UHGV virus genome: UHGV-0382128 | Source: a virus | DNA length: 64,000 bases | Strand: one strand, 5' to 3' | Shown: positions 14,551 through 40,545 of the stretch, in pieces | Position numbering within the stretch: the stretch's first letter is position 1 | Layout: the number at the start of each line of letters is the position of its first letter | Notes under the pieces: model-generated | The model's input: the letters and a program-made list of their open reading frames with translations, nothing else | Told to the model about the DNA's origin: nothing | Database searches by the model: none | Translations under genes and position numbers: made by a program

Positions 14551-14575
14551 TTTAATGCTCCTAAACACTTTTAGC

Positions 14576-21331: not shown

Positions 21332-21420
21332 GTTGAATTCTCCTGTTAGTCTACATTAAAATAGTCGTAAACGTTAAAAAGAAAGGCCCTCCTGTACCTC
21401 GAAGGGTACAGGAGGGAGTG

Positions 21421-22383: not shown

Positions 22384-22408
22384 TGCTCACCTCGGAGTAT
22401 TTTTAATT

Positions 22409-23782
22409 ATGTTAGACTTACAAGGTTTTATTCAGATACCGGCACTGTTTGACAATCAGGACGGCGTCACCGCTCCGGTGGGCGAGCTGTCGGATTTGAC
22501 ACTCTCGTACGCGAAGAGTAAACAGACGTTTACCAAAACCAATTTGCAAGTTCAATTGGTGACTTTTACGTCTAAACGAGAAAAACAGACGGTTGTTGTA
22601 CCAGCCGAATTTTCTGATCATATTCTAACCGTTTCTCAATGGATATACCAGCAAGCCATCTTGGGGAATCTGAGAAATGACGAACTTGAATTCCAGCGCC
22701 TGTTACTAGGACAATTCCAATCAACCATTTCTGGCGTTCAGTCCGGTGCGATGATTCAGACGAACAGTAATTGGTTCCCACGCTGGGTGAGCTGGAAATA
22801 TGAAGCAACAGCAGATCAAGTACAAGATGACACTGATGTAGATAATCAGATCATTGTTTGGTTCTCGGATGAAGACTTCGATCAAGATTACACAGGGTTC
22901 GAAATCGAAGTGCAGATGCCGATTTCACCAATCGACACATTTTTGTCGACCAAGTCAGTCGTTGAAAAGGCGATGGAAGGGTTTAACCTTACCGAACACC
23001 ATAAGAAAATCAATGAGTTAATGGCAGGATTTCCTTACACCGCTATCCAAACCAACTACTATACTTGGCACGATAAAGAAAACTACGAGTCCACCCTAGT
23101 TGTCCCAATGTCGGTTATTATTTACGGCCGCGCGGGAAAAAACCCAACGAAAATAAAGCAAGCATTGCGAGAACATATTCTTGCCAATTCTAGCTTTACT
23201 GTCCCCGTCGGGGTAAAGGTATTTCCTGAAATTTTCACTACCACGAAATTTACAATTGTTCCTGGATGGAAAATTCGTGGAATACCTAATGAGGAAGACG
23301 TAGCGGCGCTTTATTCCCCTATCCTTCCATATGATTTCTGGGTCAAAGCTATCAGTCGGTTTGGAGAATGGGCAGACCTGACGGTAGCGGAAAGAAATAC
23401 TAAAACGATCAGTAAGCCTACGACAGATGTAACTGACTTACCAACCGTTTATAAATCATTAAACTGTGTTGTAATCAGTGGGCCGGAAAATGATACGCGG
23501 AAAGCGACCTTACACGAAACTATCCCGGATTATGCGTTAATTGCGACGACTAACCCTGATATTGCGCGTATGTCGAAAACAACGACCGAATGGTTGGCGT
23601 TATTCTTCCAGGCACTTATTGCTGCGGAAGAATACCACCCGTATCAAACCAGCTTAGATGTTGTAAAACTGGTCGATGAGGCTGACCCTGATAACTACTT
23701 CTGGGTGTTTGAATACGACAACGTAGAATATCGTATCCTGTCTCGGAAAGCGAAATGGTACACCGAGTTAGACGAGGAGTAA
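22409..23782 (+). CDS. hypothetical protein (457 aa)
   Basis: ORF track; divergent from the 21880..22383 gene. Confidence 0.6.
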   Translation: MLDLQGFIQIPALFDNQDGVTAPVGELSDLTLSYAKSKQTFTKTNLQVQLVTFTSKREKQTVVVPAEFSDHILTVSQWIYQQAILGNLRNDELEFQRLLLGQFQSTISGVQSGAMIQTNSNWFPRWVSWKYEATADQVQDDTDVDNQIIVWFSDEDFDQDYTGFEIEVQMPISPIDTFLSTKSVVEKAMEGFNLTEHHKKINELMAGFPYTAIQTNYYTWHDKENYESTLVVPMSVIIYGRAGKNPTKIKQALREHILANSSFTVPVGVKVFPEIFTTTKFTIVPGWKIRGIPNEEDVAALYSPILPYDFWVKAISRFGEWADLTVAERNTKTISKPTTDVTDLPTVYKSLNCVVISGPENDTRKATLHETIPDYALIATTNPDIARMSKTTTEWLALFFQALIAAEEYHPYQTSLDVVKLVDEADPDNYFWVFEYDNVEYRILSRKAKWYTELDEE

Positions 23783-26605: not shown

Positions 26606-27115
26606 TTAGAAGAACGGCTGGTTTGGAATGACAGCGTACTCTAAAATGAACATGTGTTCTGGGGCGTCTTCTTTACGCCAGACTTTGTGTGTCGACACAA
26701 GTTTTTCCAGAATCGTTAAGAAACTGCGCTGGCAGTATGTGTTTTCACCAAGCAGTAGATTTTGAAGTTCTACAGTAGCGTCCATATACGCCTGTTTAAA
26801 GACTAAATTACGGTTATACTGCCCGGTAAAATTCCAAAGCAAGACTTTCCCTTCTTCGGTTTCTTTTACCGTTGGTCGTAAACCACAAATCCACAGTAAG
26901 GCAAGGTTGACGTTCCAGTCAAACTCTAAACCTTCTTCTTCGTCATCACCGAATGCTGTGGGTAAAGCATCGTAAAATTCGTGTTTCTCTGCGAATTCTT
27001 CATCCGACTTAATCTCGTCTTCGATACTGCTTCGGACGATACTGTAAACGTCTTTCGCGGTCAATTGTGCGGCTTTTGTAATGCCTTTATACCAATCGGT
27101 TACTACGATGCTCAA
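26606..27115 (-). CDS. hypothetical protein (169 aa)
   Basis: ORF track; ATGA overlap with upstream gene. Confidence 0.5.
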   Translation of the reverse strand: MSIVVTDWYKGITKAAQLTAKDVYSIVRSSIEDEIKSDEEFAEKHEFYDALPTAFGDDEEEGLEFDWNVNLALLWICGLRPTVKETEEGKVLLWNFTGQYNRNLVFKQAYMDATVELQNLLLGENTYCQRSFLTILEKLVSTHKVWRKEDAPEHMFILEYAVIPNQPFF

Positions 27116-27810
27116 AGGGTAACTCCTCTATTGATTGGAAAACTCGTGTTTATCGTATCCCAAATTCTACTAACTTCCGCCAGTTGAATCTGACGTGGTG
27201 TTTTCTTCGCAAACGCAAGCTGACGTGGGGCCGAGCCCACAACAACAGGCACATCGATTTTCGCGCTATAGAACGCGGCGTCTTTCATAAAGCCTGCCAT
27301 TTCTCGTTGTGCTGCTCGAGATTTGCTTTTGATTCGCGTGTGAGCGCCACTTTCACCCCAGTGGTAAGCTAACGCAATTTCAGCCATGGTGGGCTTGCGT
27401 TTGAGTCGTTTGGTTAACCCCCTCTCAAGATGTTTAACATACGCGGCAGCCAGCAAAACAGCATTACGCGGATTATATAAATCGGCGTTCTGACTAAGAC
27501 CTAATTCTTTTCCATAAAGCCTTAGCAGATTACGCTTGGTACTTGGAAGCATCTGTACCAGGCTGTGTGCTCGTGAGCTTTTGTTGTAAGCCTTGGGATC
27601 AAAACGTGATTCGCGATAAATCAGCGTAATCATCAGCTTAGGATCAACGCCTTGCTTTCGTGAGATTTCCACAATTAACGGGCTGACTTTTTCGAACCGA
27701 TGTTGGATTTGTGCAAACTCACGCTGATGCTTAGAATGTGGCGTTGACGTTGACGCCTGTGCGTTAAACGCGAAAAGTGTTACCAGTAAAAGAAAGAAGA
27801 TACGAAACAT
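27112..27810 (-). CDS. lytic transglycosylase (SLT domain) with Sec signal peptide; candidate endolysin
   Basis: start moved to MFRIFFLLLVTLFAFNAQAS (GGAG SD upstream); SLT catalytic region YRESRFDPKAYNKSSRAHSLVQMLPST. Confidence 0.7.
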   Translation of the reverse strand: MFRIFFLLLVTLFAFNAQASTSTPHSKHQREFAQIQHRFEKVSPLIVEISRKQGVDPKLMITLIYRESRFDPKAYNKSSRAHSLVQMLPSTKRNLLRLYGKELGLSQNADLYNPRNAVLLAAAYVKHLERGLTKRLKRKPTMAEIALAYHWGESGAHTRIKSKSRAAQREMAGFMKDAAFYSAKIDVPVVVGSAPRQLAFAKKTPRQIQLAEVSRIWDTINTSFPINRGVTL

Positions 27811-27910
27811 TTTGTTTCTCCAGTTGGATTTATACATTTCCGTATTCCGTAAGACGAAATGACGGCGCGGACAGCTAATACTCCTTTGTTGTGTGCCCTA
27901 ATGATAATAT

Positions 27911-28471
27911 CTATTTAAAAGAGTTTGGAATTAATGACTCTGCTTCTTGGTACAACTTATCAGGTAAGTATAACGTGTAGCACTGCCTCCTCGGTTCAAG
28001 TTTTTTGTAAAGCCACAAAAAGATTTCTTGTCTTTCCCAGGAATCTAACCACCCATTTGCCATTCCCAGTGGAGGGATAGCAACGCTGGTATTCAGATCC
28101 TCAGCACAGTCTGCTAGTGCGCTAATGCCCGCAGTAACATAAGAAACCTGTGACTTTAAACGCCAATGGGTTTTCGTGGGGAGCAAGATACACTTTTCAT
28201 CAGAGTAAACGTAAACGCTTCCAATCTTAATTTCGTCTTCACGACACCGCTTACGATAATCCTGATAAAGGTTGGGGTAGCGTTCACGGCACGCCAGTGC
28301 AATACCGCGACCCATCGCTCCTACGCAGTTAATGGTAACGACTTTATAGTCTTCGGGTGCATTAAAAAGATCGTTACCAATTTCAGATTCTTTACGTACC
28401 GTTAACATAACGAAACGTCCGGAGTTGGTGTGTAGTATTAAAACGTGTACCGCCGATTGATAGCTCGACAA
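27911..28471 (-). CDS. macro-domain-like protein (186 aa)
   Basis: VVTINCVGAMGRGIALA and SVAIPPLGMANGW resemble macro-domain VVNAAN..GGGV..AI and SIAFPAISTGVYG motifs. Confidence 0.45.
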   Translation of the reverse strand: MSSYQSAVHVLILHTNSGRFVMLTVRKESEIGNDLFNAPEDYKVVTINCVGAMGRGIALACRERYPNLYQDYRKRCREDEIKIGSVYVYSDEKCILLPTKTHWRLKSQVSYVTAGISALADCAEDLNTSVAIPPLGMANGWLDSWERQEIFLWLYKKLEPRRQCYTLYLPDKLYQEAESLIPNSFK

Positions 28472-28495
28472 GTATAGCGATATATGTTTTACCCA

Positions 28496-28864
28496 TTATC
28501 GATTTTTCGTAATCCATTGCTTGACCGCCGCTTCTAAACCTTCGTGTTGTAAGCCCAGGCGTTGCATAGTCAGTGCCAGGTTGAGCGTGTGTACAACCTG
28601 TTCACGGAACTGATGATCGTTCATACGGTCCCAGACCTTCTCTACTGAAATGTTGTGTTTCCAGAGCAAATAAGCTTCGCGACACGATGCGCGACGAACC
28701 AAGCTGGGTTTAACAAAAGGCAACTCGATTTCAGGCAAGTAACCTAAAAGCTTAACTAGCGGCGTTACTTGCGTCTTACCGAAGTCACCGCACTGATAAC
28801 AAATTTGCAGAATATCAATTTCATTCAACGGTATACCGTAAATTGATGGGTTCTCTGTGAACAT
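28496..28864 (-). CDS. hypothetical protein (122 aa)
   Basis: ORF track. Confidence 0.45.
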   Translation of the reverse strand: MFTENPSIYGIPLNEIDILQICYQCGDFGKTQVTPLVKLLGYLPEIELPFVKPSLVRRASCREAYLLWKHNISVEKVWDRMNDHQFREQVVHTLNLALTMQRLGLQHEGLEAAVKQWITKNR

Positions 28865-29132
28865 TCATATTCTCCTCAGGCTCGAAATGTGATTCGGGTG
28901 GCAATGTCCCTAAAGCCCCTTGGATACAAGCCGTCAGCGTAGGTTTGCCAAAACAGACCTTACCTATTGTCCCCACATTGGGATGTTGTAAGAACGCTTT
29001 TGCACGTTCGTATTCCTTCCAACAAATACTCGTATCCAAACCACCCACTCCGTACGATTTTAACATAATTAGCTCTCCTGACGTAAATTTCTCACACTCA
29101 TAGTGAGGTACGTCAGGAGAGCTTGATTGTTT

Positions 29133-29582
29133 TTAGAATGTTTTGCTAAAATCGACCCACTCACGATCGTGCGAGTAAACCGCCTGATAGCCGCGTCGGA
29201 TGAAATACTCTTTTGCTTCTTTACATTTCGCATACATGCCAGTAACAATCTCACCGAAAACTTCATCAGCTGCAATTGCTTTGAAAATCTCTTTCATTAC
29301 ACCCCGTTGACGATAGTCTGGGAGCACGTATACCGAACGTATCTTAAGTGAACCGTTACGATTCCGATAACTACAGTATCCTACCGCGACATCATCCTGA
29401 TACACCAGAACTATGCAGTTACCTTCGATCAGCTGTCGCGCATTTAACTTCGGCACCGACGTTTTGATTTTCAGTAACGTGGCCTGGTGGTCTAAGTAAC
29501 GGTAGTGTAGTTTGAGTAAATCGGCAGCTTGTCGCTCACCGACTTTAGAAGATGCGTTCAACAAATAAATTTCCATTTGCAA
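29133..29582 (-). CDS. GNAT-family acetyltransferase candidate (149 aa)
   Basis: VLPDYRQRGVMKEIFKAI resembles GNAT motif A. Confidence 0.5.
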   Translation of the reverse strand: MQMEIYLLNASSKVGERQAADLLKLHYRYLDHQATLLKIKTSVPKLNARQLIEGNCIVLVYQDDVAVGYCSYRNRNGSLKIRSVYVLPDYRQRGVMKEIFKAIAADEVFGEIVTGMYAKCKEAKEYFIRRGYQAVYSHDREWVDFSKTF

Positions 29583-29903: not shown

Positions 29904-30089
29904 CTAATTCCGCCATTCGCATTCGCGTTGACGCCAAATTGAACCCCACGATAGTTTAATCAGATAAGATGAAACTACCCATAAAATCATCACCACACAA
30001 AACATGACATAAAGAACCGCTAGAATGGACATGAAGCCAAACCCTGCCGCATCCACAATACGACGGAACCAATCAGTTTGCATAAACAA
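29904..30089 (-). CDS. small membrane protein (61 aa)
   Basis: ORF track; hydrophobic core FGFMSILAVLYVMFCVVMILWVV; start overlaps end of the Rad50-like gene. Confidence 0.3.
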   Translation of the reverse strand: MFMQTDWFRRIVDAAGFGFMSILAVLYVMFCVVMILWVVSSYLIKLSWGSIWRQRECEWRN

Positions 30090-32577
30090 TTTTTACTCCT
30101 TCGTTATACACCGCAGGCAATGTCACTCCTTCCGGTTCGATGACACAGTACGATGCTTCATTAAGTTTAGAATGGACCTCAGCTTCGTGGGAAACTACCA
30201 AGAGTTGTGAAAATTCTCCCGAGTTTGCTAACGTTTTAATAAAGCCGACCAGGTTATTACGGTGTTCCTCGTCCATGCCTTCCGAAGGCTCATCCAAAAG
30301 CAACGGAAACTGATGCAACTTCAGCGCTTTGTACGCAGTCAGTCTGAACATCAGATTAAATATAGCACGCTGTGCCTTAGACCCTTTACGCACGTCAGGA
30401 ACAGGCTCAGGGTGCGTTTTTAGCTGGACAGGAAAAGTATAATCCAAATCGCCGTCAGTGAGATCACAGGGCATAACACGCATGGGGTACGTCCAGACCT
30501 GTTCGATATAACGCGTCATTAACTCTGTGATTCTAACGATAGCGTTGTAAAAATACTTTCTAAGTACACCCTTTTCTGGCGAGAAGGCTTGAATCATCAG
30601 TTTGTTATTGAACTGCTGGGCTTGTAAGTCAGCAAGTTCACGTTCCAAACTGTTGAGTTGGTTCAATTCATTTTCCATCTGACGATAACGCTCGCGTGCG
30701 GTTGTAAAAGCATCCAGCTTCCCTTCCCGCACTCGTAAGAGTTCCTCGACGACCGTATTTGTCAACGTAACCTTAACATCACTCTCTAACCGTTCGAATA
30801 ACGCACTGAAATCATCTACAGCACGTTTAACATTCACTAGATAGGTAAGTGTCGTGTTAGCCAGTTCGTGCTCTCTACGACGCATTGAGAGCATCTCTGT
30901 GGCTTTACCTAATCGCGACTGTTGGAAGGCGATTTTCTGTTGTAAAGCACCATCGACGTTACCAACGGCCGCTACGGCATCCTGCCATTCTTTTTCCGCT
31001 TTCACTAACCGTTGTCGGGTTTCATGGTACTCAATAGCAGAGTACAATTCACCGTCAAACGCTGCACATAGACTCCCGAACTGCTCGCGAGATTCTGTGA
31101 AAACGTTACGTTCTTGCAAACGCTTAAAGAACATGCTCAATATCGGGTCCTTTGAATACGTCAGCACAATCTCACGAACCTGCCGCATATAAGTTACATC
31201 AGATTCTAATTCAACACGATCGCGTAATAAGGTCTCTAGCTGTGTTTGAAGTTCCGTCCGTTGCTGCTGTTGACCACGAATCGATGACTCGAGTTCAGGT
31301 AAAGAACGCGTAACACCTGGCCGAAACTTAAACCGACACTGCGGACAATCCACTTCTGCCGTTTCTAAGTAGTGGTTACGTTCGTGATTTAAATTCTGTA
31401 AAACGTTCTCCACTCGCTGGAGTCTATCCCGTAATCCTGCGGTTTTTTGATCCATCACCAGAAGACGTTCTTCCAAAACATTGAGTTTCTCGGTTGAATG
31501 AATAGCGTCCAGTGTTGTTCCCAACCGTTGTCCCCAAACACGCGCATCGGTAGCCGCACGAAGTTGGTCTAAATTAACGTTATCGTTAAATAAACCTGGA
31601 AAGAGATGTTCGGTGTCCCACTTGGTAAGTAACTCACGTAAACGTGCCAGTGTGTTCTTGAGACCTTCGTGGTTCCGCATCAGGTAGTCTTGTCGTGTTG
31701 ACTCATCCATCAATAGCGATAAATCTTTATTCAACATCGATACCTCTGTTTCGGTAGAAACGACGGCTTCGCGGGCTGTCGCTTCATTTTGTCGGGCGGC
31801 CAGTATCTGTTCATCAGTAGGCAACCCACCACGATGTTGTAATATTGCGTCGATGGTTGGACCCAAACCGTTTAATAACGCTTGGATTGTTTCGATCGTG
31901 ACAGCACGATTTAATCCTGGCAACTGTTCGATTTCTCGGTTCAGTTCACGTAAATCCGATTCCAAACCTTTTAATCTCGTTGCTAATTGTTGTCGTTCTT
32001 CCTCGTTCTCAATAACGCGCGTCCGTAATTCGGCAATCTTACGACTGGTGATTTCAATACCTCCATTTAAGGCGGTAAGGTTTTTACGCAAACGTTGATA
32101 AAACCCTAACGCGTATGTGAGATCAGAGGTACTTAAACGGTAAAACCATTTACGGCGTAATTCGGTTCCCGCTTCGGTTAACAAAACCTCACCATTTAAT
32201 AGTTCTTTAATTTCTTTCGTAATACCCGTGATTTCTTCAACACGAGAGTTGTAGACCTTCGCATTACCTTGCTCGACGATCTTTGCTCCCGTGGTCAGAT
32301 TTTCAATATCGCAAACCAAAGAGTTACCTTTACGGGCAACTTTGAATCGATACCGTTGATCACCAACTAAACAGTAGTTCGTGTAAGAACCGCCGTCTCT
32401 GAATTCAGTTTTAGCCGGTGCTAAGGGTAAGAATACAGACAGTAGACTGGTTTTCCCGCAACCGTTCCCACCTAGGATAATTGTTGTTGGAGACTGGATA
32501 GTGAAATCGAAAGTTTCAATTTCATGTAATCCCATCCCCGTAAAACCTTTGAGTATAATGCGTTCAACTTTTAGCAT
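30073..32577 (-). CDS. Rad50/SbcC-like SMC-family ATPase (T4 gp46-like) with CPxC zinc hook
   Basis: Walker A GGNGCGKTSLL, central coiled-coil with VDCPQCRF hook, Walker B LLLDEPSEGMD, H-loop VVSHEAEV; start moved to MLKVERI with GGAGGTGGGT SD. Confidence 0.65.
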   Translation of the reverse strand: MLKVERIILKGFTGMGLHEIETFDFTIQSPTTIILGGNGCGKTSLLSVFLPLAPAKTEFRDGGSYTNYCLVGDQRYRFKVARKGNSLVCDIENLTTGAKIVEQGNAKVYNSRVEEITGITKEIKELLNGEVLLTEAGTELRRKWFYRLSTSDLTYALGFYQRLRKNLTALNGGIEITSRKIAELRTRVIENEEERQQLATRLKGLESDLRELNREIEQLPGLNRAVTIETIQALLNGLGPTIDAILQHRGGLPTDEQILAARQNEATAREAVVSTETEVSMLNKDLSLLMDESTRQDYLMRNHEGLKNTLARLRELLTKWDTEHLFPGLFNDNVNLDQLRAATDARVWGQRLGTTLDAIHSTEKLNVLEERLLVMDQKTAGLRDRLQRVENVLQNLNHERNHYLETAEVDCPQCRFKFRPGVTRSLPELESSIRGQQQQRTELQTQLETLLRDRVELESDVTYMRQVREIVLTYSKDPILSMFFKRLQERNVFTESREQFGSLCAAFDGELYSAIEYHETRQRLVKAEKEWQDAVAAVGNVDGALQQKIAFQQSRLGKATEMLSMRRREHELANTTLTYLVNVKRAVDDFSALFERLESDVKVTLTNTVVEELLRVREGKLDAFTTARERYRQMENELNQLNSLERELADLQAQQFNNKLMIQAFSPEKGVLRKYFYNAIVRITELMTRYIEQVWTYPMRVMPCDLTDGDLDYTFPVQLKTHPEPVPDVRKGSKAQRAIFNLMFRLTAYKALKLHQFPLLLDEPSEGMDEEHRNNLVGFIKTLANSGEFSQLLVVSHEAEVHSKLNEASYCVIEPEGVTLPAVYNEGVKIVYAN

Positions 32578-32630
32578 ACCCACCTCCATAAAGACGGAGT
32601 GTGGTGTAAAAAGAAAAAAAAATAGAGAAA

Positions 32631-32652
32631 GGGAGAACCCGAAGGTTCTCCC
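32631..32652 (-). terminator. rho-independent terminator
   Basis: hairpin gggagaacc-cgaa-ggttctccc preceded on plus strand by A10 run. Confidence 0.55.
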
Positions 32653-32657
32653 AAACG

Positions 32658-33266
32658 TTATTTGGTATATGGGTGATAACCCATTGAAGTCCAATAATCG
32701 ATGTTCTTTGTGTTTTCTACCCAAACCTGTCCCGCTTTTGTGGCCAAGACTTCCATTGTCAGTGCACAGATCAGGTTTGTTACCGGAATGCAATTTCCTG
32801 GCGTAACGTCGTCCAGATAAACCGGGTATAAAAACGGTGATTTAATGGATTGGTACGGATAAGAATAGTGATTGCCGACCTTCCACCCTTCCTCTACAGG
32901 ACAGAGATTAAACGTACGTGTTTCTGGAACTGCGTTTTCAGAGATCCAGTTAACAACATCGGCTTTAATTCGGTCGTGGTCGATATAGTAGAACACGACA
33001 CGTTGTGGGATACTTGTGGTACCAGCCGGGTCTAAAGCCTCCAACGCCTTGAAAGGCGTCGTTAACAATGTTGAACTGTTCTCAAGTGCGTAAACCAATT
33101 TTTCGTAAGCAGTCGGCGTTTTACGTTTAAAATACTCCCGTAAGCGTGGATACGCCAGGAAGCCCTCTACTTCCTCTTCCATTAAGTCGATGAATAAAGG
33201 CGTATGCGAAAAACGCTCTGCATTTTGCATCGCTTCAAGAAAACGAACTAATGTAATTTCGTTCAT
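32658..33266 (-). CDS. hypothetical protein (202 aa)
   Basis: ORF track. Confidence 0.5.
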   Translation of the reverse strand: MNEITLVRFLEAMQNAERFSHTPLFIDLMEEEVEGFLAYPRLREYFKRKTPTAYEKLVYALENSSTLLTTPFKALEALDPAGTTSIPQRVVFYYIDHDRIKADVVNWISENAVPETRTFNLCPVEEGWKVGNHYSYPYQSIKSPFLYPVYLDDVTPGNCIPVTNLICALTMEVLATKAGQVWVENTKNIDYWTSMGYHPYTK

Positions 33267-33296
33267 CTGGTCTTTCCTTTTAGATCAAAAAAAGAA

Positions 33297-33315
33297 GCCC
33301 CGAATAAACGGGGCC
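33297..33315 (-). terminator. rho-independent terminator
   Basis: hairpin gcccc-gaataaa-cggggc preceded on plus strand by A-run. Confidence 0.5.
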
Positions 33316-33799: not shown

Positions 33800-33837
33800 T
33801 TTAATACTCCTTTAGGTAAAACATGTCGTAAAAAGGA

Positions 33838-33854
33838 CCCCGGACGTTCCGGGG
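33838..33854 (-). terminator. rho-independent terminator
   Basis: hairpin ccccgga-cgt-tccgggg preceded on plus strand by AAAAAGGA. Confidence 0.5.
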
Positions 33855-33866
33855 CCAAGACTACAC

Positions 33867-34256
33867 TCAATGTTCTAATTCGATAGCGCCAGCCATCTTG
33901 CCCCGTTCTTCGATAACGATCAGATAACGGTCGCGAGATTTGCTTTTAGCGAGAGTTAAGACAACAGTAGGGTCGCACGTTTTCGTGGTGATAGGAAGAA
34001 CCTCTCTTGCAACGGAATCGAGTAGAAAGTAATAACCTGCGGGACACATTGTGCCGCCATCAGCTTTTACCAGAATATAGCGCCCGTCTGCGCCGACTTC
34101 TTGGCAGATTGTTTCACCGACTTCACAAACTTCAAACCCCGGGGGATTGTACTGATAATCGGTATTGTTGTTTGAGGTTAGCAGTAAATCATTAACCTGG
34201 GTAGATGCCGCTACACTCAGGGAGAAGAAGAATGCTAAAGCGCAGATGAGACGCAT
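33867..34256 (-). CDS. secreted small Cys-containing protein (129 aa), secreted-array member 1
   Basis: signal peptide MRLICALAFFFSLSVAAS; shares Cys pattern and YILVKADGG/YVFIVEQGG core with 34267..34677. Confidence 0.5.
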   Translation of the reverse strand: MRLICALAFFFSLSVAASTQVNDLLLTSNNNTDYQYNPPGFEVCEVGETICQEVGADGRYILVKADGGTMCPAGYYFLLDSVAREVLPITTKTCDPTVVLTLAKSKSRDRYLIVIEERGKMAGAIELEH

Positions 34257-34266
34257 GAGTTACTCC

Positions 34267-34677
34267 TTAAATTTTAAGTTTATCCATAGCTACAACGATA
34301 GGTTTTTCCGAAGTGTCTAATATCCCTACCATCGGTACACCATTTTTGATTTCGAAGAACGGTTTGTTATTGCCAGAGCACAAACGTTTGTCGTTGTATT
34401 CGAGACGTTGTGCCTTCCACGTTTCGAGGTTGAGTACGGACATAGGGCTGTCGTAGCACCAGGCCCCACCCTGCTCAACGATGAACACGTATCTGCTACC
34501 TTTGTATTTAAACAGGCTCTTCGCCTGACAGTACAGACCGTCAATTTCTGTACAGTAGAAATCGTCGGTACTATTGACGTACTTAATTCCAGCTGGCAAT
34601 TGTGTTATTTTTGCTGATACGTTAACAGAGAACAGAATAGCAATTGCAATGAGAAGAGTGTTGATGATAGTTTTCAT
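34267..34677 (-). CDS. secreted small Cys-containing protein (136 aa), secreted-array member 2
   Basis: signal peptide MKTIINTLLIAIAILFSVNVSA. Confidence 0.5.
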   Translation of the reverse strand: MKTIINTLLIAIAILFSVNVSAKITQLPAGIKYVNSTDDFYCTEIDGLYCQAKSLFKYKGSRYVFIVEQGGAWCYDSPMSVLNLETWKAQRLEYNDKRLCSGNNKPFFEIKNGVPMVGILDTSEKPIVVAMDKLKI

Positions 34678-34687
34678 GATAAACTCC

Positions 34688-35173
34688 TTAGTATTTAGAT
34701 TGTTCTACGTACTTCTTAACCAGATAACCGAATTCAGCAACGCCGATTTCGCCGAACCAAACCAGATAACCGGGGTCGATGTTGTAGTAATAACCGACGA
34801 GTTTCTTGGTGTGTGGGTTGTATAGCGTTACGATATATTCCCAGCCACAAGCGTTAGCTTTACAGCCACCACTTTCAATCCAGATTTTGTTGTTGATATT
34901 TACCGGATACATGTTACCGCCAGGGCCATCCATGTAACCTTTAGAGCCGAACATTCCATCCAGCCCCACCGGATCTAGTGTTTTATCAACAACACCTTTA
35001 AATGACTTATCGGTATCGTACAAGTCGTTGATGTTTGGACACGCATTTGGCTGACCTTCCCGAGCGTTCCCATCGCAGGTAAGTAATTCGTCTACGGAGG
35101 CCGCATCTACAGTAGGTGTGGCACCGATAAACAAGAAAACCAGAAAGAACATCAGTGTATGTAAACGTTTCAT
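34688..35173 (-). CDS. secreted protein (161 aa), secreted-array member 3
   Basis: signal peptide MKRLHTLMFFLVFLFIGATPTVDA. Confidence 0.5.
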   Translation of the reverse strand: MKRLHTLMFFLVFLFIGATPTVDAASVDELLTCDGNAREGQPNACPNINDLYDTDKSFKGVVDKTLDPVGLDGMFGSKGYMDGPGGNMYPVNINNKIWIESGGCKANACGWEYIVTLYNPHTKKLVGYYYNIDPGYLVWFGEIGVAEFGYLVKKYVEQSKY

Positions 35174-35191
35174 TGTGACTACTCCTTTAGA

Positions 35192-35584
35192 TTATTCAGC
35201 AGGACGATTTAAAGTAACTCGGCCAATTAATTCGGAGTTATGAAAGAAGTCCACAGCGGTATAGTTACCAACTGATAACGGATGTATGCTAACCGACATG
35301 ACTTTTGGTTGTTCACAGGCGATATCGGTCAAACGTTGGTAGACTTGTGCACGGGTGTCAGCAATGAGTAATCCTGTACATGTTTCACCACGTACTAAAC
35401 GATAAACTTGCAGTTTACCGAAACTGCGCATTAACGTAGGTGTCTCATCCGGGTTGATAATCGGTGAGTCAGGAGCGGGTTCGTAATGGTTGACATCCGA
35501 ACCGCCGAAAGCGTAAGTGCCAGTAATGCCGATTGCACAGAAAACAATGATAGTATAAAGTATAGTTCTAATATTCATTTTCAC
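35192..35584 (-). CDS. secreted protein (130 aa), secreted-array member 4
   Basis: signal peptide MKMNIRTILYTIIVFCAIGITGTYA. Confidence 0.5.
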   Translation of the reverse strand: MKMNIRTILYTIIVFCAIGITGTYAFGGSDVNHYEPAPDSPIINPDETPTLMRSFGKLQVYRLVRGETCTGLLIADTRAQVYQRLTDIACEQPKVMSVSIHPLSVGNYTAVDFFHNSELIGRVTLNRPAE

Positions 35585-35606: not shown

Positions 35607-36068
35607 TTATTTGTTAGGACGGGTGTGTCCACAGTTCTGGAAGAAAGTTTCAGATAGACGTTCGCCTTCTACGGTAAAGTTAGCGGCGTCATTACCATTG
35701 ATACTCACGCTGAAATTTTTGGCATTACCGATAGCATTAACGAAAGCAACCCAAGCGAGTTCTGCTTTGTCACTACCATCCACGGTAGGGATGTTATAGG
35801 TTTTGCCGTTTACGACAATATCCATCGTGTTATCTTCAGCGTTAGTTGCACCTACAGGTTCCCCGTAATACCAAACCATGCGACCGTAAAATTTGCGATT
35901 CGCGGTTTCAGTGTCACAGTTGATAGACAGTCCGTTTCCGGTGGTGTCTTCGATTTCGTAAACTGCCTGACCAGGGTTCTGTATTTGTTCCCAGCTGTTG
36001 ATAGCGGCGTGTGCAGTATTGAATCCGAAAGTTAAAATGGTTACTAAGAACGCGATAAAAGTTTTCAT
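35607..36068 (-). CDS. secreted protein (153 aa), secreted-array member 5
   Basis: start moved to MKTFIAFLVTILTFGFNTAHA (AAGGAG SD upstream). Confidence 0.5.
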   Translation of the reverse strand: MKTFIAFLVTILTFGFNTAHAAINSWEQIQNPGQAVYEIEDTTGNGLSINCDTETANRKFYGRMVWYYGEPVGATNAEDNTMDIVVNGKTYNIPTVDGSDKAELAWVAFVNAIGNAKNFSVSINGNDAANFTVEGERLSETFFQNCGHTRPNK

Positions 36069-36114
36069 TGAAATGCTCCTTCGGGTTATGGGAAAGTTCC
36101 CACAAATCATGAAA

Positions 36115-36486
36115 TTAAATGAGAAAGTGGGCAACTCTTTTAATCTGTCTATAACTATCATCGATACCTCTTATTATTTCCAGACGTTCTTCTGAAGAAA
36201 GGCATTGGTTAATGTCTTTGTCAAGATTGAACAATGTCATGAGTTTTGCAATCGAAACTGCCAGGTTGTCCGATAGCTCGTTGTTTTTACGCCATTCTTC
36301 GTTACGGAAAATACAGATAAGGTCTTTCACCTGGTTTTCAGCGAGCGGTTTGGCTAACTGTGCGTCGCGCTGTTCGAGAAGGTATGCTTCGTTGGTAAGT
36401 AATTGTTTCAGGTCTTCTGGGTAAAGGGCAGCGCGAGTAACGATCAGTAATACAACAAACGGGTCTTTGAACAATTCGTTTTTCAT
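36115..36486 (-). CDS. hypothetical protein (123 aa)
   Basis: start moved to MKNELFKDPF with AGGAGAACTAAAG SD; the annotated longer ORF runs into an upstream hairpin. Confidence 0.45.
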   Translation of the reverse strand: MKNELFKDPFVVLLIVTRAALYPEDLKQLLTNEAYLLEQRDAQLAKPLAENQVKDLICIFRNEEWRKNNELSDNLAVSIAKLMTLFNLDKDINQCLSSEERLEIIRGIDDSYRQIKRVAHFLI

Positions 36487-37205: not shown

Positions 37206-37979
37206 CTAATAATTAAGTTTTACATCGGCAATAAACAGCAACTGTTTACCGTGTTGCTGCACTTCTTTCCAACCTAGTTTCATAGCAGCGTCAACAACAT
37301 CTATCATGCTGTAACGAGACATCAACGCGGTTGATTTTGTTCCTGACATTAAGTAAAGCGGCTCGTTGGGGCAACGGTCGCGTGCATCAGGAAGTTCCCG
37401 AGAGACTGCTGAGCCTTCGGGTACGGTAACAACATGAATCACGGTAAATGGTCTTTTGTGGGTTAAATAAATACGAAACCCAACGTGTTCAGACTCATGA
37501 AAGACTTTCTTTACAACCACATCTTTTAGTGTCGTCTGAACATCAATCCCAGGTAATATCGTGGATTCGCGAGAAACAAAACAACGACTATTTTCAACCA
37601 TGGAGAAATAATTACGTATCGGTAAACTGGCGTTATGATCGCGCAGTTTTTTGCTCAGTAGATCGAAGTTCAGTTCTTTAACTTTCTCTAGCCATTCTTT
37701 GGCTTGTTGTATGTAATAACTACCAACGGTGCGATAAGTCAATACCTTACCTGTGCTTACTTTCCAAAGTTTAACGCTTAGTGAATTCGGCTTATAGCGA
37801 CGATACTCACCCCGCGTATAGTTGATGCGCTCGTAACGCTCTACATCGTCAACGGGCGCAGATTCGATCGATTGTAATTGCAACGTACGATCTAATCTAT
37901 CGGCGAATAGTAGTGATGTTAGCGGACCTTCGATCAAATACGGTTCGGTTTTAAAGATATCATCTAGATGGATTTTCAT
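37206..37979 (-). CDS. hypothetical protein, 4-gene paralogue family member (C-terminal GW..V...G.QLLF.A motif)
   Basis: C-terminus LGWKEVQQHGKQLLFIADV. Confidence 0.55.
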   Translation of the reverse strand: MKIHLDDIFKTEPYLIEGPLTSLLFADRLDRTLQLQSIESAPVDDVERYERINYTRGEYRRYKPNSLSVKLWKVSTGKVLTYRTVGSYYIQQAKEWLEKVKELNFDLLSKKLRDHNASLPIRNYFSMVENSRCFVSRESTILPGIDVQTTLKDVVVKKVFHESEHVGFRIYLTHKRPFTVIHVVTVPEGSAVSRELPDARDRCPNEPLYLMSGTKSTALMSRYSMIDVVDAAMKLGWKEVQQHGKQLLFIADVKLNY

Positions 37980-38046
37980 TTCTATTTCCTTCTTAACAAA
38001 AGCCGCGACTAAAGCGCGGCAGTTAGAGAAAGTCTATTTTTACTTA

Positions 38047-39198
38047 TTAGAGGTCAGCAACAAACAACAGCTGGCAGCCGTACTTTTGTACGTCCGCCCA
38101 ACCGTAGTCTTTTCCGATTATAGGTAGATGTAAAAAATCCAGCTTCTCGTCTTTCGCTTTTAGTTTCGCCATTAACGTATTGGACTCCTCAGCACTGAGC
38201 AGTAATGCGGGCTCTTTTTCAGTACGTCCTTCTGCGGTTGGGAAGAAATTGTAATAGCTGCGAGTAGGTAAATCGACAGAAAAACTACGATTGCCTATTC
38301 TGGCGATGAACGCAACTCCTTCACAGTTAGCATCTACACTACACGACCATCCCGCCTCCGTTAAAAGGTCTTTTAACAGACACCACACTTTAAGTTGGTT
38401 CTTAGAAACTGTACGGTAAATAGCAAGATGTTCAGGAAGTAAATGTACGCCCATAACCACGTTTTCAGATTTCTCGTCAAGCAACTCTGGATGCTGTATC
38501 GGGAACAATAATTCAGTGATACCCACGTTATCAATTTTGTTAACAAAATCAGTTAATTCATCTTTTAAGGTACACACGGATTTTTCTCCTTTGTCTTCAA
38601 TAATCAGGTGGGGTTCGCCGCTAATTAAAATGTGGTAAACGAGATCGTCAGTAGAACGGTAAGTGAGCTTGATTGCTTTATCACTTAATATTTCGTAGCG
38701 GAAGAAACTTTCGTACCAACTTGAGCCGAAATCGTTTTGTGTGAGTTCCTGCTCAACTTTGATGGTTTTTGCTTCAAAGCCGATTAACTCGCTTAATAAC
38801 GCGAGTTCTTGTTTAGTTAAAATAGCTACACCGTGAAAGGGCACTTGTTCAAGCTGAAAACATAACTTAGTGACTTCACCATTTGGGAAGACCTTAAACA
38901 TAATCTTCCGGTTGCTACTCTTTTCCCTAACAACGAGTTTACGGTAATTTAGTCCACAATTTGTGTAAGCCGCGAACTGGTAACCTTCAATTTCTTCATC
39001 GGAAGTACAGACATCGACAGGCGCGATAATCTCATCGTATTCACTAAGTACACAGCAGCCCAATTTATAACCAAACAACGTATGTTGTAAAAAATAGTCG
39101 AGGGTTAAGCTTGGTAGTGGCCAAGCCCGATTATAGCATCTGTCCATCAGTTCTTTTAGGTACTTGGCATGTCTTGGTTTAGAAATAATATTTCGCAT
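38047..39198 (-). CDS. hypothetical protein, paralogue family member (383 aa)
   Basis: C-terminus DYGWADVQKYGCQLLFVADL. Confidence 0.55.
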   Translation of the reverse strand: MRNIISKPRHAKYLKELMDRCYNRAWPLPSLTLDYFLQHTLFGYKLGCCVLSEYDEIIAPVDVCTSDEEIEGYQFAAYTNCGLNYRKLVVREKSSNRKIMFKVFPNGEVTKLCFQLEQVPFHGVAILTKQELALLSELIGFEAKTIKVEQELTQNDFGSSWYESFFRYEILSDKAIKLTYRSTDDLVYHILISGEPHLIIEDKGEKSVCTLKDELTDFVNKIDNVGITELLFPIQHPELLDEKSENVVMGVHLLPEHLAIYRTVSKNQLKVWCLLKDLLTEAGWSCSVDANCEGVAFIARIGNRSFSVDLPTRSYYNFFPTAEGRTEKEPALLLSAEESNTLMAKLKAKDEKLDFLHLPIIGKDYGWADVQKYGCQLLFVADL

Positions 39199-39229
39199 TT
39201 TTACTCTCCTTTAGGGGTTTTTTCGTTAC

Positions 39230-39784
39230 TTAAGCAGGGCAAGCTAAGAACAACAACTGCTGACCGATTTTACGTACGGTATACCAACCGTGGGCTTTAG
39301 CGACCGCGATCAACGTTTCCCAGTCATCAACATCACATTGCTCGTTCCGAAGTTTTGTAAAGAGTGCTTCGGCTTCGTCTTGGTTTAATAACTTACCTGG
39401 ATTATCAGGGGTGGTGCCAGAAGGGGTTGGAAAGAAATCGTATTGACGCGCTAAGAGAAAATCAACCAGATACTTGGTGTTCTCTTTATAAACCAGCGTG
39501 GAAGTCTTCCCTTCGTGGAAGAAGCTGCCTGTTTTCCAAACGCTATCTTTCAGTAAGCTCTGAAGGTAATCTGTAAAGCCCGTTCTAAATGGGATATGCG
39601 TTTTACGCGTGATGTTGCGACGCAGCGGGGTTTCCTCTACAGCTTGTACACTTACCCCTACTATCATCGCACCTGGCTGGATAATGGTATTGGTCAGTAC
39701 GGTATAAGGACGGACAAAGAAATGTTCGCCTACGCCTTTTTCAAGGGTTTGGATAATTTCATTTTTCAGTTCAGTTTGAAACAT
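39230..39784 (-). CDS. hypothetical protein, paralogue family member (184 aa)
   Basis: C-terminus AHGWYTVRKIGQQLLFLACPA. Confidence 0.55.
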   Translation of the reverse strand: MFQTELKNEIIQTLEKGVGEHFFVRPYTVLTNTIIQPGAMIVGVSVQAVEETPLRRNITRKTHIPFRTGFTDYLQSLLKDSVWKTGSFFHEGKTSTLVYKENTKYLVDFLLARQYDFFPTPSGTTPDNPGKLLNQDEAEALFTKLRNEQCDVDDWETLIAVAKAHGWYTVRKIGQQLLFLACPA

Positions 39785-39810
39785 GGTATATTCTCCTTTT
39801 AGGTTTTTAC

Positions 39811-40545
39811 TTACGCGGTTTTAATTAGCAGCAGATAGCCCTTCGTAATCTCAGCACAACTCCACCCTTTTACGGCAGCGACACCACGAAGGTAATTTTC
39901 TGTGTGATACTGTAAAAACGGATCGTCTGGATTAATCTCAACTAGGTGAGTGGCTTTAGAAATCGTTTCCGCCTCTGGGATTTGTTTTGTTAAGCCTGAT
40001 GCAATCAGTTCAATAACGCGGTATCCCTCTAACCAAGAAACATAGATACGTAAACCGTATAACTTACCGTTATCTTTTAAGGGATAAAGACTGATGTCCC
40101 GGCCGAGCAACGTTAATTCTACATCAGTGGGAAGGTTTTCTACATGCTTGATTAACCCTACCCCATGTCTAAACAGTGGGAAGTAAGAGTATAGCGTCAG
40201 CATACTGCTTCCTCCAATAAACGTAACATCGGAAACGGTAGGCGTGCTGGCAATGAGGCGAACATGTTCCGCTACGACTTCAAGTTCGGCGTCACTGATC
40301 AATTTATAGAATAAAATGACGCTGGTTTCGGTATTAAGAACAAAGAAGAACCGGTTGGCGTGACTGCTTATCGTGTATTCGTCAACCATGCTGTCGATAA
40401 CGTCACTGTCTGGATAATCTTCGGGTTTAATTGTTTCAGCAGAGACTAACTTAGCAGGTTGGGATTGCCCTATTAGTTCATTAACCACCGTAGAAGAAAG
40501 TTCTAAACTGGTGTTAGTAAAGATATCGTCTAATAATTCTCTCAT
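39811..40545 (-). CDS. hypothetical protein, divergent paralogue family member (244 aa)
   Basis: C-terminus AAVKGWSCAEITKGYLLLIKTA. Confidence 0.5.
   Translation of the reverse strand: MRELLDDIFTNTSLELSSTVVNELIGQSQPAKLVSAETIKPEDYPDSDVIDSMVDEYTISSHANRFFFVLNTETSVILFYKLISDAELEVVAEHVRLIASTPTVSDVTFIGGSSMLTLYSYFPLFRHGVGLIKHVENLPTDVELTLLGRDISLYPLKDNGKLYGLRIYVSWLEGYRVIELIASGLTKQIPEAETISKATHLVEINPDDPFLQYHTENYLRGVAAVKGWSCAEITKGYLLLIKTA

What the first reader, a model, noticed from the sequence alone, without database searches (positions are those of the whole stretch)
30073..32577. Rad50/SbcC-like ATPase with CPxC hook but no adjacent Mre11/SbcD-like nuclease
The protein has Walker A, a long coiled-coil interrupted by VDCPQCRF (zinc-hook-like), a degenerate signature (GSKAQRAIFNLMFRL) and Walker B/H-loop. 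In T4 the gp46 and gp47 genes are adjacent, whereas here neither flanking gene shows phosphoesterase motifs. The nuclease partner may be elsewhere, or this ATPase may work with a different partner.
Basis: partly seen in the sequence, partly recalled or inferred. Interest (0 to 1): 0.4.

Follow-up and report, generated by a model that had tools for sequence, protein, structure and literature searches.

The report
Jumbo-phage SbcC/Rad50; nuclease partner encoded far away
This gene is the Rad50/SbcC-type DNA-end-processing ATPase that all phiKZ-like "nucleus-forming" jumbo phages carry; its Mre11/SbcD nuclease partner is not missing but sits about 87 kb away in the same genome, an arrangement already described for this phage family, so the finding is real but ordinary.

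Summary
Window 30073..32577 (-) encodes an 834-aa Rad50/SbcC-type ABC ATPase: Walker A, two ~250-270-residue helical arms meeting at an invariant CPxC hook, an S-x-A-Q signature, Walker B, D-loop and H-loop. No Mre11/SbcD-like gene lies beside it or anywhere in the 64-kb window.

The window comes from a phiKZ-like jumbo phage (closest relatives Erwinia phages Asesino/phiEaH2, about 70% aa). The protein is the ortholog of SPN3US gp186 and phiKZ orf165, a conserved gene that is essential in SPN3US (amber mutants) and tolerated no transposon insertions in phiKZ. Relatives carry a divergent but genuine SbcD far from SbcC. A 225-kb sister-strain contig (95% nt identical locally, SbcC 99% aa) has an intact 382-aa SbcD about 87 kb downstream of SbcC. 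SbcC and SbcD queries each hit 290 phage records.

The two upstream neighbours are not nucleases: no family hits, hhalign probability below 1% against the SbcD profile, and no conserved metal ligands. They are also not next to the gene in phiKZ.

Thomas et al. 2016 already reported that SbcC and SbcD are "drastically separated" in these phages. Already known; low interest. One small loose end: a 59-aa membrane protein gene overlaps the SbcC stop codon.

The parts
30073..32577 (-). SbcC/Rad50-like ABC ATPase gene, 834 aa; ortholog of SPN3US gp186 and phiKZ orf165
   Evidence: Translation. PHROG 77 SbcC-like 1e-90 over residues 1-833. tblastn hits 290 phiKZ-like phage records, including PHIKZ165. 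Best PDB sequence hits are Rad50. Best Foldseek hit is C. thermophilum Rad50, 7zr1, 1.4e-17.
32446..32472 (-). Walker A / P-loop, GGNGCGKTS (res 36-44)
   Evidence: Coordinates. G36, N38, G39, G41 and K42 are invariant in the family alignment.
31312..31356 (-). Hook block EVDCPQCRFKFRPGV (res 408-422). The CPQC (res 411-414) is at 31336..31347, at the apex between the two helical arms.
   Evidence: C411, C414, F418, P420 and G421 are invariant down to 30% identity. In the AF2 model a short beta-hairpin loop (res 406-425) sits between helices 154-405 and 426-694. Zinc binding is inferred, not shown.
30367..30387 (-). ABC signature motif variant KGSKAQR (res 731-737; family consensus G-S-x-A-Q)
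   Evidence: Aligns to the CSAGQK signature of C. thermophilum Rad50 in the phmmer alignment. G732, S733, A735 and Q736 are invariant.
30271..30309 (-). Walker B FPLLLDE (res 757-763) followed by D-loop PSEGMD (res 764-769)
   Evidence: Coordinates. D762, E763 and D769 are invariant.
30184..30198 (-). H-loop / switch, VVSHE (res 794-798)
   Evidence: Coordinates. S796 and H797 are invariant.
32583..32589 (-). Shine-Dalgarno GGAGGTG, 5 nt upstream of the ATG at 32577
   Evidence: Read directly from the sequence.
32631..32652 (-). Terminator-like hairpin GGGAGAACC-TTCG-GGTTCTCCC plus a T-run, between the upstream 202-aa gene and SbcC
   Evidence: Found by the terminator scan. RNA fold -19.9 kcal/mol, z = -4.17, 0 of 200 shuffles fold as well. 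It suggests that SbcC is not tightly co-transcribed with its upstream neighbours (inference).
29904..30083 (-). 59-aa single-pass membrane protein gene whose ATG overlaps the last 11 nt of SbcC (ATGCAAACTGA); counterpart of SPN3US gp187
   Evidence: Overlap and hydropathy (2.82 over res 20-38). PHROG 16515. Detected at the same position in the closest relatives only, L005-L009. Thomas et al. noted the SPN3US equivalent (PMC5105663). A functional link to SbcC is a hypothesis only.

Best explanation
The gene encodes the SbcC/Rad50 subunit of the phage's own Mre11-Rad50-type (SbcCD, T4 gp46/47-like) DNA-end-processing complex.

Shown here:
- It is a split ABC ATPase head joined by a roughly 520-residue antiparallel helical arm with a conserved CxxC at its tip.
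- It belongs to the orthologous group conserved across phiKZ-like (Chimalliviridae) jumbo phages.
- Genomes of this group, including a sister strain of this very phage, also encode a divergent but genuine Mre11/SbcD phosphoesterase at a distant locus, about 87 kb away in the sister strain and about 90-95 kb by the shorter way round in relatives.

Inferred from established knowledge of Rad50/Mre11, E. coli SbcCD and T4 gp46/47:
- Two ATPase heads engage on ATP binding and clamp DNA ends.
- Two CxxC hooks share a zinc ion to join the coiled coils.
- The distally encoded SbcD dimer docks at the base of the coiled coils and supplies the Mn-dependent exo- and endonuclease.
- The complex resects DNA ends to give 3' tails for the phage UvsX-like recombinase (encoded at window 10940..12436), feeding recombination-dependent replication and repair of the phage genome.

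The absence of an adjacent nuclease gene reflects the scattered gene order typical of these phages, not a different partner.
For: Identity of the ATPase:
- PHROG 77 SbcC-like, 1e-90, full length.
- Pfam SMC_N 1.7e-8; NCBIfam best hit Rad50, 1.2e-10.
- PDB phmmer hits Rad50 heads 5da9 (1.3e-5) and 3qkt (3.8e-4).
- AF2 model pLDDT 80.4 with lobe-arm-hook-arm-lobe architecture; Foldseek top hits are the Rad50 chains of 7zr1 at 1.4e-17, and human Rad50 and E. coli SbcC are also hit.
- All catalytic motifs and the CxxC are invariant to 30% identity.

Orthology and context:
- 58-71% aa identity, full length, to Asesino gp207 and the SPN3US SMC/SbcC protein, and 27% to PHIKZ165.
- Gene order is conserved with Asesino and SPLA5c.

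The partner:
- SPN3US SbcD at 21020..22168 versus SbcC at 168900..171407; Asesino SbcD at 21690..22910 versus SbcC at 170896..173406.
- IMG/VR contig 3300029126_000001 (225,000 bp) carries a 99%-aa-identical SbcC (95.1% nt over 8.5 kb) and an intact 382-aa SbcD about 87 kb downstream.
- SbcC and SbcD queries each hit 290 phage records with almost the same genus breakdown.
- One Salmonella assembly (locus-tag prefix E1L24) holds both genes.

The partner is a real Mre11/SbcD:
- PHROG 100, 8.5e-64.
- A deep profile hits only Mre11/SbcD in its top 16 PDB matches: T. maritima 2.6e-11, E. coli SbcD 1e-7, P. furiosus Mre11 5e-6.
- Metal-ligand motifs D22/H24, G57/D58, H101/D102, H180 and H212/H214 are invariant.

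Functional importance of the orthologs:
- SPN3US gp186 amber mutants show the gene is essential (PMC5105663).
- phiKZ orf165 tolerated no transposon insertions (PMC12676376) and gave an antisense knock-down phenotype (PMC12571901).
- SbcC plus SbcD are described as practically universal in jumbo phages (PMC7824862).
Against: - No biochemical or interaction data exist for this protein or, in the papers read here, for any phiKZ-like SbcC/SbcD pair. Complex formation and nuclease activity are inferred from homology and co-occurrence.
- The SbcD was found in a sister strain (95% nt identical locally) and in relatives, not on the window's own 68-kb source contig.
- Scores against curated cellular models fall below their cut-offs: Pfam SMC_N 34.6 bits against 40, and NCBIfam Rad50 40 bits against 847. 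This is a very divergent member.
- The signature motif is S-K-A-Q rather than S-G-G-[EQ]. SbcD motif III is G-T-P-S-H-D rather than G-N-H-[DE]. Regulation could therefore differ from the models.
- The role in recombination-dependent replication is extrapolated from T4.
Confidence: 0.87

Rival explanations
1. The ATPase works with a different partner encoded next to it, rather than with an Mre11-type nuclease. Candidates are the 202-aa or 158-aa upstream proteins, and the 59-aa membrane protein whose start overlaps the SbcC stop.
For: - The two upstream genes keep their position next to SbcC in all close relatives, from 99% down to about 52% SbcC identity.
- The small membrane ORF overlaps the SbcC stop by 11 nt, an arrangement suggesting translational coupling. 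Thomas et al. noted its SPN3US counterpart gp187 as a possible analogue of T4 gp47.1 (PMC5105663).
- All three are of unknown function.
Against: - The upstream proteins have no Pfam, NCBIfam or PADLOC hits.
- hhalign probability against the SbcD profile is 0.2% and 0.6%, against 100% for the control.
- The only invariant polar residues in the 202-aa protein are E31, R89 and T170.
- Its AF2 model has no significant PDB fold match: best E = 0.08, TM below 0.2.
- Each upstream gene ends in its own terminator-like hairpin.
- In phiKZ the gene upstream of orf165 is a divergently transcribed baseplate gene, so these neighbours are not conserved across the family.
- A genuine SbcD co-occurs with SbcC across 290 records.
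- The membrane peptide could at most be an accessory factor; it cannot replace a nuclease.
Confidence: 0.06
2. It is an SMC-like DNA organiser, or a Lamassu/Wadjet-type defence or counter-defence ATPase, rather than a Rad50/SbcC repair enzyme. Many database records call it an 'SMC domain-containing protein'.
For: - PADLOC LmuB (Lamassu) 3e-18, full length, and weak JetC hits.
- Foldseek also returns Smc5/6, condensin, MukB, Lamassu and JetC at E from 1e-15 to 1e-7.
- The only Pfam hit is the generic SMC_N family.
Against: - The SbcC PHROG match is far stronger: 307 bits against 64 bits for LmuB.
- The best sequence and fold matches in the PDB are Rad50.
- The apex is a ~20-residue CxxC loop, not the ~150-residue hinge domain of true SMCs.
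- None of the adjacent ORFs scanned (two upstream, one downstream) matches any PADLOC model, so no LmuA, JetA, JetB or JetD-type partner was seen.
- The gene is a conserved, essential phage gene that co-occurs with SbcD.
Confidence: 0.04
3. The split arrangement is an artefact, or the gene is a decaying remnant without a working partner in this particular phage.
For: The window's own source contig is only 68 kb, so the SbcD of this exact isolate was not seen directly.
Against: - The ORF is intact, all catalytic residues are conserved, and it has a strong ribosome-binding site.
- Its 90%-identity cluster has 285 members on phage-sized contigs.
- The sister strain has an intact SbcD with all metal ligands.
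- The same separation is seen in independently sequenced complete genomes.
Confidence: 0.02

Closest known systems
Salmonella phage SPN3US gp186 (SbcC subunit), with its SbcD gp27
   Same: Full-length ortholog, 58% aa identity over 834 residues. Same local gene order, including the small membrane ORF just downstream and the two small upstream genes. Same separation of SbcC from SbcD. Genetically essential (PMC5105663).
   Different: A different phage species: no megablast-level DNA similarity to any record of the phage collection. No functional differences are apparent.
Pseudomonas phage phiKZ orf165 (gp165), a conserved Chimalliviridae gene
   Same: Same family: tblastn 8e-31, with the match spanning residues 1-828 (53% of them aligned). 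[quoted passage not shown]
   Different: Only about 27% identity. The flanking genes differ: in phiKZ a divergently transcribed baseplate gene lies directly upstream.
Bacteriophage T4 gp46/gp47
   Same: Phage Rad50/Mre11 pair used for end resection and recombination-dependent replication (own knowledge, and as summarised in PMC5105663). The window phage also encodes a UvsX-like recombinase.
   Different: T4 genes 46 and 47 are clustered; here the two genes are about 87 kb apart. The protein is larger: the region between the ATPase lobes is about 300 residues longer than in T4 gp46, by analogy with SPN3US gp186, for which Thomas et al. also report no BLASTP-detectable similarity to T4.
E. coli SbcCD and archaeal/eukaryotic Mre11-Rad50
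   Same: Same architecture: split ABC head, antiparallel coiled coil, CxxC hook. The best structural matches are Rad50 of the C. thermophilum MRN complex, human Rad50 and E. coli SbcC. The partner profile hits T. maritima, E. coli and P. furiosus Mre11/SbcD.
   Different: 10-14% identity in structural alignments. The signature is S-K-A-Q rather than S-G-G-E (E. coli SbcC; own knowledge) or S-A-G-Q (eukaryotic Rad50). The partner has motif III G-T-P-S-H-D rather than G-N-H-[DE] and is missed by Pfam Metallophos. The genes are not in an operon.

Membership tests
Rad50/SbcC ATPases (Mre11-Rad50-type complexes) | Split ABC-ATPase head: Walker A in the N-terminal lobe; signature, Walker B, D-loop and H-loop in the C-terminal lobe | tested here: met
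   All motifs were located and are invariant in the family alignment. Both lobes align to Rad50 heads in the PDB.
Rad50/SbcC ATPases (Mre11-Rad50-type complexes) | Long antiparallel coiled coil inserted between the two lobes | tested here: met
   In the AF2 model (pLDDT 80.4), helical segments 154-405 and 426-694 fold back on each other. Foldseek top hit is full-length Rad50, 7zr1.
Rad50/SbcC ATPases (Mre11-Rad50-type complexes) | CxxC zinc hook at the coiled-coil apex | tested here: met
   CPQC at res 411-414 lies in the 406-425 loop between the arms. C411 and C414 are invariant to 30% identity. Zinc coordination and hook-mediated dimerisation cannot be tested with these tools.
Rad50/SbcC ATPases (Mre11-Rad50-type complexes) | Score above the curated cut-off of a family model | tested here: inconclusive
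   PHROG 77 SbcC-like at 1e-90. Pfam SMC_N scores 34.6 bits, below its gathering score of 40. NCBIfam Rad50 scores 40 bits, far below its cut-off of 847. It is a clear homolog but too divergent for the models built on cellular proteins.
Rad50/SbcC ATPases (Mre11-Rad50-type complexes) | A cognate Mre11/SbcD phosphoesterase encoded in the same genome | tested here: met
   None in the window. One is present on the same 225-kb contig as a 99%-identical SbcC in a sister strain and in all relatives examined. Its profile hits only Mre11/SbcD in its top 16 PDB matches. Not verified on the window's own isolate.
Rad50/SbcC ATPases (Mre11-Rad50-type complexes) | ATP-dependent nuclease activity in complex with the Mre11/SbcD partner | not testable with these tools
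   This needs biochemistry. Only genetic essentiality of orthologs is available.
sbcDC / T4 46-47 type operon arrangement (typical of the family, not defining) | ATPase and nuclease genes adjacent or clustered | tested here: not met
   No SbcD within 30 kb on either side. The separation is about 87 kb in the sister strain and about 90-150 kb in relatives. This is a known trait of phiKZ-like phages.
Chimalliviridae SbcC orthologous group (SPN3US gp186 / phiKZ orf165) | Full-length similarity and conserved gene order with members of the group | tested here: met
   290 phiKZ-like phage records are hit, 148 of them over at least 80% of the length. PHIKZ165 is hit. Gene order matches Asesino and SPLA5c.
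True SMC proteins (condensin, cohesin, MukB) | Globular hinge (dimerisation) domain at the coiled-coil apex, and a kleisin partner | tested here: not met
   The apex is a ~20-residue CxxC loop, not a hinge domain. No kleisin-like neighbour was found.
Lamassu LmuB / Wadjet JetC defence ATPases | Adjacent effector or partner genes (LmuA; JetA, JetB, JetD) | tested here: not met
   LmuB at 3e-18 reflects superfamily kinship only. Neighbouring ORFs have no PADLOC hits. The gene is an essential, conserved phage gene.

The most novel reading that the evidence does not exclude
The most novel reading left open is that the 59-aa membrane protein, whose gene overlaps the end of SbcC, is a dedicated accessory of the phage SbcCD complex. 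It might, for example, tether or time the complex at a membrane or early-infection compartment before or outside the phage nucleus. On this reading, the variant signature (S-K-A-Q) and the variant nuclease motif III (G-T-P-S-H-D) would mark a mechanistically distinct branch of Mre11-Rad50 machines adapted to nucleus-forming phages. Nothing here tests this. It rests on the gene overlap, on conservation of the small ORF in the closest relatives only, and on a remark in Thomas et al. 2016.
Probability: 0.1. Interest if true: 0.4.

Novelty: already known. Interest (0 to 1): 0.1.

Why it matters
It matters little beyond correct annotation.

The gene should be labelled as the SbcC/Rad50 subunit of the phage SbcCD complex, not as a generic "SMC domain protein" or as an orphan ATPase. 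Its partner should be looked for with family-specific profiles, because Pfam Metallophos and a GNH[DE] motif search both miss the divergent jumbo-phage SbcD.

The case is a useful reminder that gene adjacency rules taken from T4 or E. coli do not hold in phiKZ-like genomes, where functionally linked genes are scattered.

The essentiality of the orthologs makes the complex a reasonable target for studying how nucleus-forming phages start recombination-dependent replication. That question is already open in the field and is not raised by this window.

Tried and rejected
- **GNH[DE] and relaxed phosphoesterase motif grep over all window ORFs:** negative, but rejected as sufficient evidence. The family's SbcD has motif III G-T-P-S-H-D and would have been missed. 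It was replaced by tblastn/phmmer with the real SbcD.
- **Megablast of 5 kb around the gene against the phage collection:** no match. The phage is not in that collection at the DNA level.
- **The nearby "exonuclease/endodeoxyribonuclease" of relatives (window 20597..21331) as a candidate partner:** it is a DEDD-type Rv2179c-like 3'-5' exonuclease, not Mre11.
- **Pfam and single-sequence PDB search on the SPN3US SbcD:** nothing found. PHROG and a deep profile were needed.
- **Single-sequence search for related loci with the Asesino SbcD:** missed the sister-strain contig. The alignment-based scan found it.
- **First attempts to read fetched loci in the sandbox:** failed because files appear with a delay. 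One translation was made in the wrong frame.
- **AF2 of the 202-aa neighbour:** only a 5-sequence alignment was available, giving a moderate model (pLDDT 70) with no fold match. Its function stays unknown.
- **SbcD in the window's own sample (SRR5831601):** not shown. The exact-sequence look-up of the closest cluster representative returned another sample.
- **Set overlap of the 290 SbcC and 290 SbcD records:** could not be computed record by record, because only the top rows are listed. The genus counts differ by one for Salmonella and for Vibrio.
Full report
**1. What is at the coordinates**

The minus strand of 30073..32577 carries an 834-codon ORF.
- It is preceded by GGAGGTG 5 nt upstream.
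- 13 of 15 aligned homologs begin at the same M-[LF]-K-V-[EN]-R-I.
- The longer version would overlap the upstream gene 32658..33266.

- Walker A GGNGCGKTS, res 36-44
- CPQC, res 411-414
- signature KGSKAQR, res 731-737
- Walker B FPLLLDE, res 757-763
- D-loop PSEGMD, res 764-769
- H-loop VVSHE, res 794-798

In a 15-sequence alignment reaching 30% identity the key residues are invariant. These include C411 and C414, inside a conserved EV-x-CP-x-C-x-x-F-[RK]-PGV block. The features are therefore selected, not chance.

**2. What the protein is**

- PHROGs gives family 77, "SbcC-like subunit of palindrome specific endonuclease", at 1e-90 over residues 1-833.
- Pfam gives only SMC_N at 1.7e-8, below its gathering score.
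- The best NCBIfam hit is Rad50 at 1.2e-10, far below its cut-off.
- A phmmer search of PDB sequences returns Rad50 heads for both lobes: C. thermophilum 5da9 at 1.3e-5 and P. furiosus 3qkt at 3.8e-4. In that alignment the query's GSKAQ aligns with the CSAGQ signature.
- An AlphaFold2 model built on the family alignment (mean pLDDT 80.4) shows an N-terminal lobe, helices 154-405, a short beta-hairpin loop 406-425 carrying the CxxC, helices 426-694, and a C-terminal lobe.
- Foldseek against the PDB puts the Rad50 chains of the C. thermophilum Mre11-Rad50-Nbs1 complex first (7zr1, 1.4e-17). Other SMC-class ATPases follow, and human Rad50 and E. coli SbcC are also hit.

The apex is a ~20-residue hook loop, not an SMC hinge. 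PADLOC's best hit, Lamassu LmuB at 3e-18 and 64 bits, is much weaker than the SbcC PHROG at 307 bits, and no defence partner gene is nearby. I read it as superfamily kinship.

**3. Where the window comes from**

There is no near-identical DNA in the phage collection. At the protein level the query hits 290 records, all phiKZ-like jumbo phages:
- Erwinia phages Asesino, Stratton and phiEaH2 at about 70% identity
- the SPN3US group at about 58%
- phiKZ itself (PHIKZ165) at 27%, E = 8e-31

Gene order around the gene matches Asesino and the SPN3US-like phage SPLA5c.

The window is 99.98% identical to a 68-kb Logan contig from SRR5831601. Over 8.5 kb it is 95-96% identical to two IMG/VR contigs of 221 and 225 kb. 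Members of the same protein clusters carry NCBI names from Salmonella, E. coli and Shigella isolate assemblies, on ~222-228 kb contigs.

**4. The missing nuclease**

*Not in the window.* No ORF has a GNH[DE] motif, but that test is inadequate for the reason given below. The nearby gene that relatives annotate as an exonuclease (window 20597..21331) is a DEDD-type Rv2179c-like enzyme, followed by an RNase H gene.

*Present elsewhere in relatives.* SPN3US has an annotated SbcD at 21020..22168, against its SbcC at 168900..171407. Asesino has SbcD at 21690..22910 and SbcC at 170896..173406.

*It is divergent.* Pfam and a single-sequence PDB search see nothing in the SPN3US SbcD, but it matches PHROG 100 "SbcD-like" at 8.5e-64. 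It carries the phosphoesterase motifs with a variant motif III, G-T-P-S-H-D. That variant is why the GNH[DE] grep could not have found a homolog.

*It is genuine.* A deeper profile of 20 sequences, some of which carry Pfam Metallophos, returns only Mre11/SbcD in its top 16 PDB hits: T. maritima at 2.6e-11, E. coli SbcD at 1e-7 and P. furiosus Mre11 at 5e-6. The metal ligands are invariant.

*Searching the window with it.* tblastn and phmmer with this SbcD give only noise, best E = 0.26.

*Same genome, distant locus.* The 225-kb IMG/VR contig that holds the 99%-identical SbcC at about 53.7-56.2 kb also holds an intact 382-aa SbcD at about 143.1-144.2 kb. That is about 87 kb downstream on the same strand. 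In window terms it would lie about 57 kb beyond the left edge.

*Co-occurrence.* The SbcD query also hits 290 records with nearly the same genus counts as SbcC. One Salmonella assembly (E1L24) holds both genes.

**5. The neighbours**

The evidence is against this:
- Both match only PHROGs of unknown function and nothing in Pfam, NCBIfam or PADLOC.
- Profiles built from their syntenic homologs give hhalign probabilities of 0.2% and 0.6% against the SbcD profile, against 100% for a positive control.
- Neither has a conserved Asp/His ligand set. The 202-aa protein's only invariant polar residues are E31, R89 and T170.
- An AF2 model of the 202-aa protein (pLDDT 70) has four strands and no significant PDB fold match.
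- Each upstream gene ends in its own terminator-like hairpin. The one before SbcC folds at -19.9 kcal/mol with z = -4.2.
- In phiKZ the gene upstream of orf165 is a divergently transcribed baseplate gene, so these neighbours are not conserved partners.

The only tightly linked gene is a 59-aa single-pass membrane protein whose ATG overlaps the last 11 nt of SbcC.

**6. Mechanism**

*Shown:* the architecture, the conservation, the orthology, the co-occurrence with a real SbcD, and the essentiality of orthologs. The essentiality evidence is SPN3US gp186 amber mutants (PMC5105663), absence of transposon insertions in phiKZ orf165 (PMC12676376), and an antisense knock-down phenotype (PMC12571901).

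*Inferred* from established knowledge of Mre11-Rad50, E. coli SbcCD and T4 gp46/47:
- ATP-driven head engagement on DNA ends.
- Zinc-hook-mediated joining of the coiled coils.
- Docking of an SbcD dimer at the base of the coiled coils.
- End resection that feeds the phage UvsX-like recombinase, encoded at 10940..12436, for recombination-dependent replication and repair.

**7. Comparison with what is known, and novelty**

Thomas et al. 2016 already identified SPN3US gp186 as SbcC and gp27 as SbcD. [quoted passage not shown] They also remarked on the small transmembrane protein gene immediately downstream. Iyer et al. 2021 describe SbcC and SbcD as practically universal in jumbo phages.

The window's gene is a new-species ortholog with the same arrangement. 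The phenomenon is already known.

**8. Verdict**

The alternative of a different, adjacent partner is not supported. Interest is low (0.1). The residual open point is whether the overlapping membrane peptide has anything to do with the complex.

Noticed in passing
window 29904..30083 (-): A 59-aa ORF with one strongly hydrophobic segment (res 20-38) has an ATG that overlaps the SbcC stop by 11 nt. It matches PHROG 16515 and was detected at the same position in the closest relatives only. It is the counterpart of SPN3US gp187, which Thomas et al. 2016 noted as a possible analogue of T4 gp47.1.
   Followed up: partly
window 33856..33836, 33315..33296, 32652..32631 (-): Each of three consecutive small genes upstream of SbcC ends in its own GC-rich hairpin plus T-run. 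The region has 11 terminator-like sites against 5.8 +/- 2.7 expected. This suggests gene-by-gene transcription punctuation.
   Followed up: partly
proteins P0048-P0051 and P0096, P0098, P0099 (Salmonella phages SPFM1, 6, 9, 12, 15, 20); tblastn hit H125 (SPFM7): For P0048 (SPFM1) against a normal SPN3US-type SbcC, the protein is made of ~20-aa blocks that match but appear in reverse block order. Twenty residues is 60 nt, one sequence line, so this looks like a record-level artefact (reversed line order), not biology. The other listed SPFM SbcC and SbcD entries show the same symptom, full length but only 5-8% of the query covered, and were not examined individually.
   Followed up: partly
clusters of P0001, P0052, P0054, P0056: This phage, or close strains of it, turns up as ~222-228 kb contigs in many Salmonella enterica, E. 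coli and Shigella flexneri isolate assemblies. The two clusters have 285 and 248 members. This hints at an enterobacterial host and perhaps a carrier state, or at contamination in surveillance sequencing.
   Followed up: no
L026 4992..6140; alignment A5: The jumbo-phage SbcD family has an invariant motif III G-T-P-S-H-D in place of the usual G-N-H-[DE]. Pfam Metallophos misses it (0 hits at E <= 0.01 for the SPN3US protein), so motif or Pfam screens will wrongly report these phages as lacking Mre11/SbcD.
   Followed up: yes
window 33867..35584 (-), perhaps extending to 36161: A run of four consecutive small ORFs (129-161 aa) all begin with signal-peptide-like hydrophobic N-termini. A fifth ORF (35607..36161) has an internal hydrophobic stretch. 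All are of unknown function, for example PHROG 5248.
   Followed up: no
window 37206..40545 (-): Four consecutive ORFs (257, 383, 184 and 244 aa) end in a shared C-terminal motif, roughly GW..V...G.QLLF.A, as seen in the translations. This looks like a tandem paralog family.
   Followed up: no
window 13651..14646 and 14576..15502 (-): Two adjacent ORFs both match PHROG 6160 of unknown function (2.6e-19 and 4.1e-38). They are probably tandem paralogs.
   Followed up: no
window 1414..2448 (-): A thymidylate synthase of 344 aa matches the 266-position Pfam model end to end (4e-110). That implies about 78 residues of insertion.
   Followed up: no
window 27112..29582 (-): Downstream of SbcC lies a cluster of accessory enzymes: a GNAT acetyltransferase (29133..29582), a macro-domain protein (27911..28471) and an SLT lytic transglycosylase (27112..27837). 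The cluster is also present in Asesino and SPLA5c.
   Followed up: no
window 10940..12436, 19074..20594, 20597..21331 (-): Other DNA-transaction genes are scattered on the same strand: a UvsX-like recombinase (PHROG 97, 1e-55), a 506-aa RNase H-domain protein, and a DEDD Rv2179c-like 3'-5' exonuclease. They are likely co-workers of SbcCD in recombination-dependent replication.
   Followed up: partly
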